Assembly: GCA_964016885.1 (NCBI GenBank)
Contig: OZ024759.1
Location: 31,496,001 to 31,560,000, forward strand
DNA: 64,000 nt
Reading direction: 5' to 3'
From: Eledone cirrhosa
Lineage: Eukaryota
The position numbers and the translations under genes were made by a program. Shown here piece by piece: positions 11,575 to 11,850 of this stretch. Below the pieces are notes generated by a model that ran no database searches, was not told the origin of the DNA, and saw only the letters and a list, made by a program, of their open reading frames with translations. Each line of letters opens with the position of its first letter. The first letter of the stretch is position 1.

Positions 11575-11850
11575 AATAATAATAAATTTGAAGACTAAAA
11601 TCCATAGAGGGCTCGATAAGGATAAATATATATCAAATATATAAGAACCGTAGAGCAAATATTTATTAAAATAACAGATTAAAGTTTAAGCAAAGAATCG
11701 CTGCTTTCACCCTTAACGGGATCTTCTGAGTTTCAGAAGATCCCGTTAAGGGTGAAAGCAGCGATTCTTTGCTTAAACTTTAATCTGTTATTTTAATAAA
11801 TATTTGCTCTACGGTTCTTATATATTTGATATATATTTAATAAATATATA
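11575..11850. mobile_element. Family D palindromic element
   Basis: About 100-bp perfect inverted arms centred near 11730; related copies at 38590-38770 and 55583-55617. Confidence 0.85.
11729..11779 (+). ncRNA. Hammerhead ribozyme variant (core CAGAAGA)
   Basis: agttt-CAGAAGA-tccc(gttaa)gggt-GAAAgca(gcgattctt)tgcTT^aaact; all three stems can form. Confidence 0.7.

What the first reader, a model, noticed from the sequence alone, without database searches (positions are those of the whole stretch)
11729..11779. Hammerhead with a recurring non-canonical core CAGAAGA (U4A)
Stems I-III are all formable but the normally invariant U4 is A. The same CAGAAGA appears in the opposite arm of the palindrome and in the separate copy at 55583-55617 (minus strand agtttcagaagatcccgttaagggtgaaagcagcg), so it looks family-wide rather than a one-off decay. 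It may be a natural core variant or an inactive lineage that still spread.
Basis: partly seen in the sequence, partly recalled or inferred. Interest (0 to 1): 0.7.

Follow-up and report, generated by a model that had tools for sequence, protein, structure and literature searches.

The report
Hammerhead with fixed U4A core, retrotransposon
About 25,000 copies of a jumping gene in this animal genome carry a hammerhead self-cutting-RNA motif with an A where nearly all known ones have a U, and the rest of the fold has been kept across long divergence, so it is likely a slow-cutting natural variant rather than decay; cutting is untested.

Summary
Window 11729-11779 is a type I hammerhead fold with core CAGAAGA (U4A). 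It belongs to the pseudo-LTR of a recently active Hydra-clade Penelope-like retrotransposon (713-aa open frame, two pLTRs). Genome-wide, 24,860 copies have A4 and 294 do not. An older subfamily, about 75-80% identical, also has A4 in 31 of 38 hits, and around the motif it differs only in loops and unpaired flank. So the fold is under constraint and the 'mutated local duplicate' refutation fails. About 2,800 copies begin at the first base of stem I, mostly behind an extra G, which suggests a capped, uncut transcript starting at the hammerhead. Published mutagenesis predicts low activity for U4 changes, and cutting was dispensable for a related element in vitro. Best reading: an attenuated, possibly protein-assisted ribozyme (0.5). 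Rivals: catalytically dead but co-opted fold (0.3), fully active (0.15), relic (0.05). I found no report of a natural U4A; one key paper was not available. The scan noted U4A once before, in a phage type III motif. New variant of a known kind; interest 0.5.

The parts
11729..11779 (+). Type I hammerhead fold with U4A core; first 51 nt of the inferred transcript of the element's pLTR
   Evidence: sequence; family-wide counts; architecture matches Hydra-clade rows of Craig 2021 File S2
11734..11740 (+). Core CAGAAGA; A4 at 11735
   Evidence: A4 in 64 of 64 copies picked by a downstream anchor
11729..11729 (+). Inferred transcription start (first base of stem I); this copy begins here
   Evidence: 2,774 copies have a non-element base just upstream, G in 20 of 30 by script and 62 of 100 by eye. 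In this copy the G at 11728 could equally be templated by the other arm
11774..11775 (+). Predicted cleavage site (after U17 of CUU)
   Evidence: inferred from hammerhead numbering; untested
11733..11839 (+). Right arm of the fold-back stub: pLTR end plus part of the tail
   Evidence: 107 matched pairs
11571..11729 (-). Left arm: inverted copy from the core to the end of the tail; lacks the 5' strand of stem I
   Evidence: compared with full element L062
55557..55668 (-). Helitron-borne fragment of the same pLTR (core at 55612-55606), cut after stem III 5' strand and joined to a hairpin-CTAG end
   Evidence: the Helitron label rests on recalled terminal features
38582..38770 (.). Third fold-back stub of the same family, core lost at the junction

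Best explanation
This is the pseudo-LTR hammerhead of a recently active Hydra-clade Penelope-like retrotransposon in which U4A is fixed family-wide, and it is likely an attenuated (slow, possibly protein-assisted) self-cleaving RNA rather than a decayed one. Shown: the family, its intact frames, the fixation of A4, the retention of stems and of all other core bases while loops change, and a sharp pile-up of copy 5' ends at the first base of stem I with an extra G. Inferred: transcription starts at that base, so the hammerhead is the capped 5' end of the element's RNA; uncut RNA is the usual template; cutting would remove a 46-nt capped leader; A4 lowers the rate by losing U4 contacts and by pairing with U11.1 in a competing helix that traps G12. 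The window copy itself is a fold-back stub and is probably inert.
For: Family: L062 has a 713-aa frame between two pLTRs, both CAGAAGA; 89 scored genome matches are 95-100% identical to the L025 frame. Fixation: 24,860 against 294; 39 of 39 motifs in 28 of 29 oriented ORF loci. Constraint: 0 of 51 motif sites against 21 of 154 upstream sites are shared polymorphisms (Fisher p = 0.002). Subfamily A against B: 0/51 against 15/192 (p = 0.026). Subfamily C against A: loop II, loop III (2), stem I internal loop (1) and 4 bases just past stem Ib change; no stem base changes. Ancestral U4: 26 of 26 Hydra rows in Craig File S2 read ctga, 14 with the same U-U at 10.1/11.1 and 10 with U17 (counted by eye); 76,363 CUGA-type motifs in this genome against control 289. 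Attenuation: Roberts 2023 reports low activity for CUGA single mutants; predicted C3-G12 alternative pair 0.40 with A4 against 0.02 with U4. Dispensability and protein assistance: Frangieh 2024. Start site.
Against: No cleavage was measured. The tail just downstream is about as conserved as the motif (1 of 80 sites A against B; 2 of 79), so constraint may reflect promoter or protein-binding roles. Subfamily C was picked by a pattern that fixes the core (except position 4) and stem II, so only stems I and III are independent tests there. Roberts 2023 found no rescue of CUGA mutants by any second mutation, which fits 'dead' as well as 'slow'. Only 1 of 97 copies has its 5' end next to the cleavage site, and a canonical sister family looks similar in a small sample (one palindrome among 15 arms), so this does not discriminate. 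Stem Ia is poorly populated in prediction with either base (0.08 and 0.11).
Confidence: 0.5

Rival explanations
1. The motif no longer cuts at all; the fold and sequence are kept because they overlap the internal promoter or form a binding site for the element's reverse transcriptase next to its two start sites.
For: CUGA mutants have low activity and no second-site rescue; catalytic mutants did not affect insertion in vitro; the inferred start site is the first base of the motif; the tail is equally conserved; A4 favours a helix that traps G12.
Against: C3, G5, A6, G8, A9, G12, A13, A14, A15.1 and U16.1 show no shared variant in 64 unselected copies. Changes in subfamily C fall in loops, including a 1-nt loop II length change that would shift promoter spacing.
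Confidence: 0.3
2. A4 is compensated by loop II/stem I tertiary contacts or by protein binding, and the ribozyme cuts about as well as canonical Hydra hammerheads.
For: Perreault 2011 argues that tertiary contacts offset natural core variants, including U4C in a viroid; the anole element's hammerhead is protein-assisted; full copies have an extended stem I with an internal loop.
Against: Three unfavourable features together (A4, U10.1-U11.1, CUU triplet; the low rate of CUU is recalled). Stem Ib's 5' strand lies upstream of the inferred start and would be missing from pLTR-initiated RNA.
Confidence: 0.15
3. An unconstrained relic: U4A killed the ribozyme and the apparent conservation is young age or homogenisation of the 3' block.
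For: Template switching is frequent at the motif's 5' edge (19 of 97 junctions in 10 nt). Some copies were multiplied inside Helitron-like DNA elements with no RNA stage (17 of 118 classified).
Against: Subfamily C is about 20-25% diverged yet keeps every stem base while neighbouring loop and flank bases change. Tail variants are linked to upstream subfamily types.
Confidence: 0.05

Closest known systems
Hammerheads of Hydra-clade Penelope-like elements (Craig et al. 2021, PMC8557442, File S2; e.g. Hydra-1_aJap)
   Same: Type I, sense strand in the pLTR, short stem II, frequent U10.1-U11.1 and U17, (TA)n insertion, inverted truncated copies.
   Different: All 26 listed rows have CUGA; this family has CAGA and a 9-nt loop III. 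By eye its protein differs from the listed octopus family Hydra-1_Obim.
Natural core variants of the hammerhead (Perreault et al. 2011, PMC3088659: U3-A8, A6C, U15.1-A16.1, U10.1-U11.1, viroid U4C)
   Same: A conserved core base is changed in a natural, propagating RNA.
   Different: U4A is not named in the main text (0 hits) or in the text of 11 supplements; figures were not visible. Here the variant is fixed in about 25,000 copies over at least three subfamilies.
Poseidon element PAc of the green anole (Frangieh et al. 2024, PMC11167929)
   Same: pLTR hammerhead, two internal reverse-transcription starts giving a tail, uncut RNA as main template.
   Different: PAc has a canonical, protein-assisted core; here position 4 is altered and the inferred start site coincides with stem I.
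Minimal PLE hammerheads (Cervera and De la Pena 2014, PMC4209133)
   Same: PLE pLTR location, low expected activity.
   Different: Those lack helix III or have a tiny palindromic one and act as dimers; this one has a 4-bp helix III with a non-palindromic loop.

Membership tests
Type I hammerhead ribozyme | Three helices around a junction, open at stem I | tested here: met
   Formable; stems I and III kept while loops change; not the predicted minimum-energy fold
Type I hammerhead ribozyme | Core CUGANGA | tested here: not met
   A at position 4 in 24,860 of 25,154 hits; the other six positions are canonical
Type I hammerhead ribozyme | GAAA, A15.1-U16.1 pair and NUH site | tested here: met
   GAAA 11754-11757; CUU 11772-11774
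Type I hammerhead ribozyme | R10.1-Y11.1 pair | tested here: not met
   U-U; a known natural variant and common in Hydra rows
Type I hammerhead ribozyme | Rfam model match | tested here: not met
   No hammerhead hit at E <= 10 on L062:440-560
Type I hammerhead ribozyme | Self-cleavage after H17 | not testable with these tools
Hydra-clade Penelope-like element | Single frame, RT followed by C-terminal GIY-YIG-type nuclease, flanked by pLTRs | tested here: met
   L062; IVYKC...YIG in 29 of 29 oriented loci; RT matches the Hydra alignment by eye; Pfam gave no relevant hit
Hydra-clade Penelope-like element | RWK-type N-terminal motif, CxCX5C linker, CxxC and CxH around the nuclease E and N | tested here: met
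   RWR in 9 of 12 copies reaching it, CxCX5C in 30 hits; PCDLC 28 and ACKH 26 of 29 loci
Hydra-clade Penelope-like element | DKG modified to DKT | tested here: inconclusive
   NKT in L062; my pattern caught only that copy
Hydra-clade Penelope-like element | (TA)n insertion and inverted truncated copies | tested here: met
Hydra-clade Penelope-like element | Placement in the clade by phylogeny | not tested
   No tree built; nearest metagenome relatives (40-43% identity) carry a hammerhead nearly identical to the Hydra-1_aMil row
Hydra-clade Penelope-like element | Canonical hammerhead, stated as universal in the clade | tested here: not met
   U4A, and no other CUGANGA motif at a shared position in 29 ORF loci

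The most novel reading that the evidence does not exclude
The element has evolved an off-switch in its own ribozyme: the hammerhead is the capped first 51 nt of its mRNA, and U4A was selected because A4 pairs with U11.1 and locks the catalytic G12 away, sparing the cap for translation until the element's protein binds and refolds the RNA into a cutting form. It would be a natural, active U4A hammerhead that standard CUGA searches miss.
Probability: 0.2. Interest if true: 0.72.

Novelty: new variant of a known kind. Interest (0 to 1): 0.5.

Why it matters
What hammerheads do in Penelope-like elements is an open question. Here a thriving family has fixed a change at a core base treated as invariant and kept everything else, beside canonical sister families in the same genome. 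That gives a ready natural comparison for whether cutting is needed. If the variant cuts, hammerhead search descriptors miss a whole class; if it does not, it shows that a Hydra element spreads without cleavage while the fold is kept for another job. The cap-like G footprint also maps a likely start site to the first base of the ribozyme.

Tried and rejected
Local mutated duplicate: rejected. A hidden U4 subfamily: a CUGA version of the motif gave 1,005 hits, but of 30 examined 27 are fold-back junctions, where the inverted arm supplies the T, 2 join unrelated flank and 1 is a true substitution (by eye); the 3 U4 hits in subfamily C are also fold-backs. U4A as a CAG splice acceptor whose use would rebuild CUGA: no precise exon-to-AAGA join among 100 of 2,090 listed junction copies; a recurrent join (8 of 100) is a non-spliced derivative; not supported, but DNA copies cannot exclude splicing. 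Expression and cleavage in RNA: no RNA holder listed; contigs of four unnamed runs showed no listed variant at position 4 (one search was cut) and cannot show RNA ends. Cleavage-site footprint compared with a canonical family: sample too small (15 arms). One search used a badly chosen degenerate letter and did not select cleavage-site junctions. Rfam on the whole window returned microsatellite-driven hits in the 150 of 358 rows shown. Luense et al. 2017 (PMC5785218), on PLE hammerhead variants, is not held and was not read.

Full report
Observation. The stretch 11729-11779 reads as a type I hammerhead with core CAGAAGA, a U-U at 10.1/11.1, a 3-bp stem II, a 4-bp stem III with a 9-nt loop, a CUU site and a 5-bp stem I. 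It lies in a fold-back with 107 perfectly paired bases per arm. The opposite arm carries the core but not the 5' strand of stem I. The copy at 55583-55617 stops after the 5' strand of stem III and runs into a hairpin-CTAG end; that join is unique in the genome. On its own the 51-mer is no more stable than shuffles, and Rfam does not find the family motif, so the case for a hammerhead rests on homology and comparative evidence.

The family. A 24-mer from the motif occurs 24,016 times in the 3.0-Gb genome, control 0. Flanks lead to a Penelope-like retrotransposon: L062 holds a 713-aa open frame between two pLTRs, each with CAGAAGA, and the 89 scored protein matches are 95-100% identical to the query, which indicates recent activity. 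The protein has the RW-type, CxCX5C, CxxC and CxH features that Craig et al. 2021 give for the Hydra clade (section 11 read), and its RT matches their alignment by eye (supplement passages). I built no tree. The closest metagenome relatives (40-43% identity) carry a canonical hammerhead nearly identical to their Hydra-1_aMil row. The genome looks like a cephalopod's; that impression comes from a recalled SINE and is not tested. In full copies stem I extends by a further 7 bp beyond an internal loop.

Is U4A family-wide? With stem I and stem II fixed, A4 gives 24,860 hits and any other base 294; the first 100 of those are 39 G, 33 T and 28 C by eye, the pattern of scattered mutation. All 39 motifs in 28 of 29 oriented ORF-bearing loci have A4 (one of the 30 loci could not be oriented). 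In a sample chosen by an anchor downstream of the motif (97 copies from the first 23 Mb of contig C1), 64 of the 64 copies long enough have A4. A CUGA version of the pattern gives 1,005 hits, but 27 of 30 examined are fold-back junctions where the inverted arm supplies the T. TTC-A-GAA is a near-palindrome, so U4A equals an inversion of these seven bases; template switching is a plausible origin (inference). U4 is the ancestral state: 26 of 26 Hydra rows in Craig File S2 read ctga, and this genome holds 76,363 CUGA-type motifs with the same U-U, control 289.

Decay or constraint? In the unselected sample, 0 of 51 motif sites carry a shared variant against 21 of 154 upstream sites (p = 0.002). 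A young subfamily A (1.8% mean divergence) and an older B (about 5%) differ at 15 of 192 upstream sites and 2 internal-loop sites, and at none in the motif (p = 0.026). An older subfamily C has A4 in 31 of 38 hits, the 3 T being fold-backs; two copies align to L062 at 72-83%. Against A it changes loop II, two bases of loop III, one of the stem I internal loop and four bases just past stem Ib, and no base of stems Ia, Ib or III. Against this: C was selected by a pattern fixing the core and stem II; the downstream tail is about as conserved as the motif; and 17 of 118 classified copies sit inside Helitron-like elements, which inflates copy number without an RNA stage.

Where copies begin. Of 97 copies, 19 have their 5' junction in the 10 nt from A6 to the first base of stem I, 10 in the 36 nt between there and the cleavage site, 1 beside the cleavage site and 4 in the next 38 nt upstream. 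Genome-wide, 2,774 copies have a non-element base directly before stem I; it is G in 20 of 30 by script and 62 of 100 by eye, against about 25% expected (p = 2e-6 for the scripted 30). Some G are templated by the other arm, but the G also stands before TA-rich flank and on both arms of some fold-backs. An extra G is the known mark of reverse transcription over a cap (recalled), and the site resembles an initiator (recalled). I infer that transcription starts at the first base of the hammerhead and that capped, uncut RNA was copied. Penelope of D. virilis has an internal pLTR promoter (passages); my one search for this arrangement in Hydra elements listed two papers, neither evidently describing it (listing only). 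A canonical sister family seems to behave alike in a sample of 15 arms, so the lack of a cleavage-site peak does not show that U4A abolished cutting.

Does it cut? Untested. Roberts et al. 2023 state that, apart from the C3-G8 swap, single and double mutants of CUGA had low activity (passages; no per-mutant value found in the supplements). ViennaRNA gives a competing helix that pairs A4 with U11.1 and C3 with G12 at probability 0.40, against 0.02 with U4. Perreault et al. 2011 show that some natural core variants, U4C and U10.1-U11.1 among them, keep activity (section 8 and passages). Frangieh et al. 2024 found the anole element's hammerhead protein-assisted and dispensable for insertion in vitro (first two of four parts read). 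Together: attenuated ribozyme 0.5, dead but co-opted fold 0.3, compensated and fully active 0.15, relic 0.05.

Novelty. Searches for U4A or CAGA-core hammerheads (listings only) and the Perreault text and supplements gave no report of a natural U4A. Figures are not held, and Luense et al. 2017 could not be read, so a prior mention is possible. Cervera and De la Pena 2014 (parts 1-2 of 4) report U3-A8 but not U4A in what I read. An octopus repeat annotation does not mention ribozymes (passages). Earlier scan notes record U4C and U3-A8 in other PLE families and U4A with a deleted N7 in a phage (unchecked AI notes). Verdict: a real, family-fixed, structurally conserved new variant of a known kind, with a cheap decisive test; interest 0.5.

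Noticed in passing
window 38928-38904 (minus strand): A hammerhead of another family with a U4C core (CCGAUGA), while its sister at 61480 has CUGA.
   Followed up: no
window 4696-4719 (+) and 53860-53883 (+): A second, canonical Hydra-like hammerhead family; the copy at 4696 has a sporadic U4A, the one at 53860 has U4.
   Followed up: partly
L005, L010, L011, L012, L038, L046, L047: Helitron-like non-autonomous elements have captured this pLTR end, hammerhead included, and multiplied it.
   Followed up: partly
L011 and 8 of 100 rows: A multi-copy derivative in which unrelated sequence is joined at A4, so that C3 and stem I are lost.
   Followed up: no
L062 (minus), about 3690-3635 and 3595-3580: GCTC...GAGC hairpins follow both places where copies end (pLTR end and tail end), seen by eye; agrees with earlier scan notes on Hydra twin hairpins.
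   Followed up: partly
L212/L213, L010, L273: The canonical sister family also folds back at the 5' edge of stem I, so a start site at the hammerhead's first base may be general in Hydra elements.
   Followed up: partly
window 8266, 16386, 43497, 59693, 62792 (+): Further canonical hammerhead-like cores of other repeat families; 11 CUGANGA...GAAA matches against 1.2 expected.
   Followed up: no
window about 11463-11565 (+): A SINE-like repeat (label recalled) directly precedes the fold-back stub.
   Followed up: no
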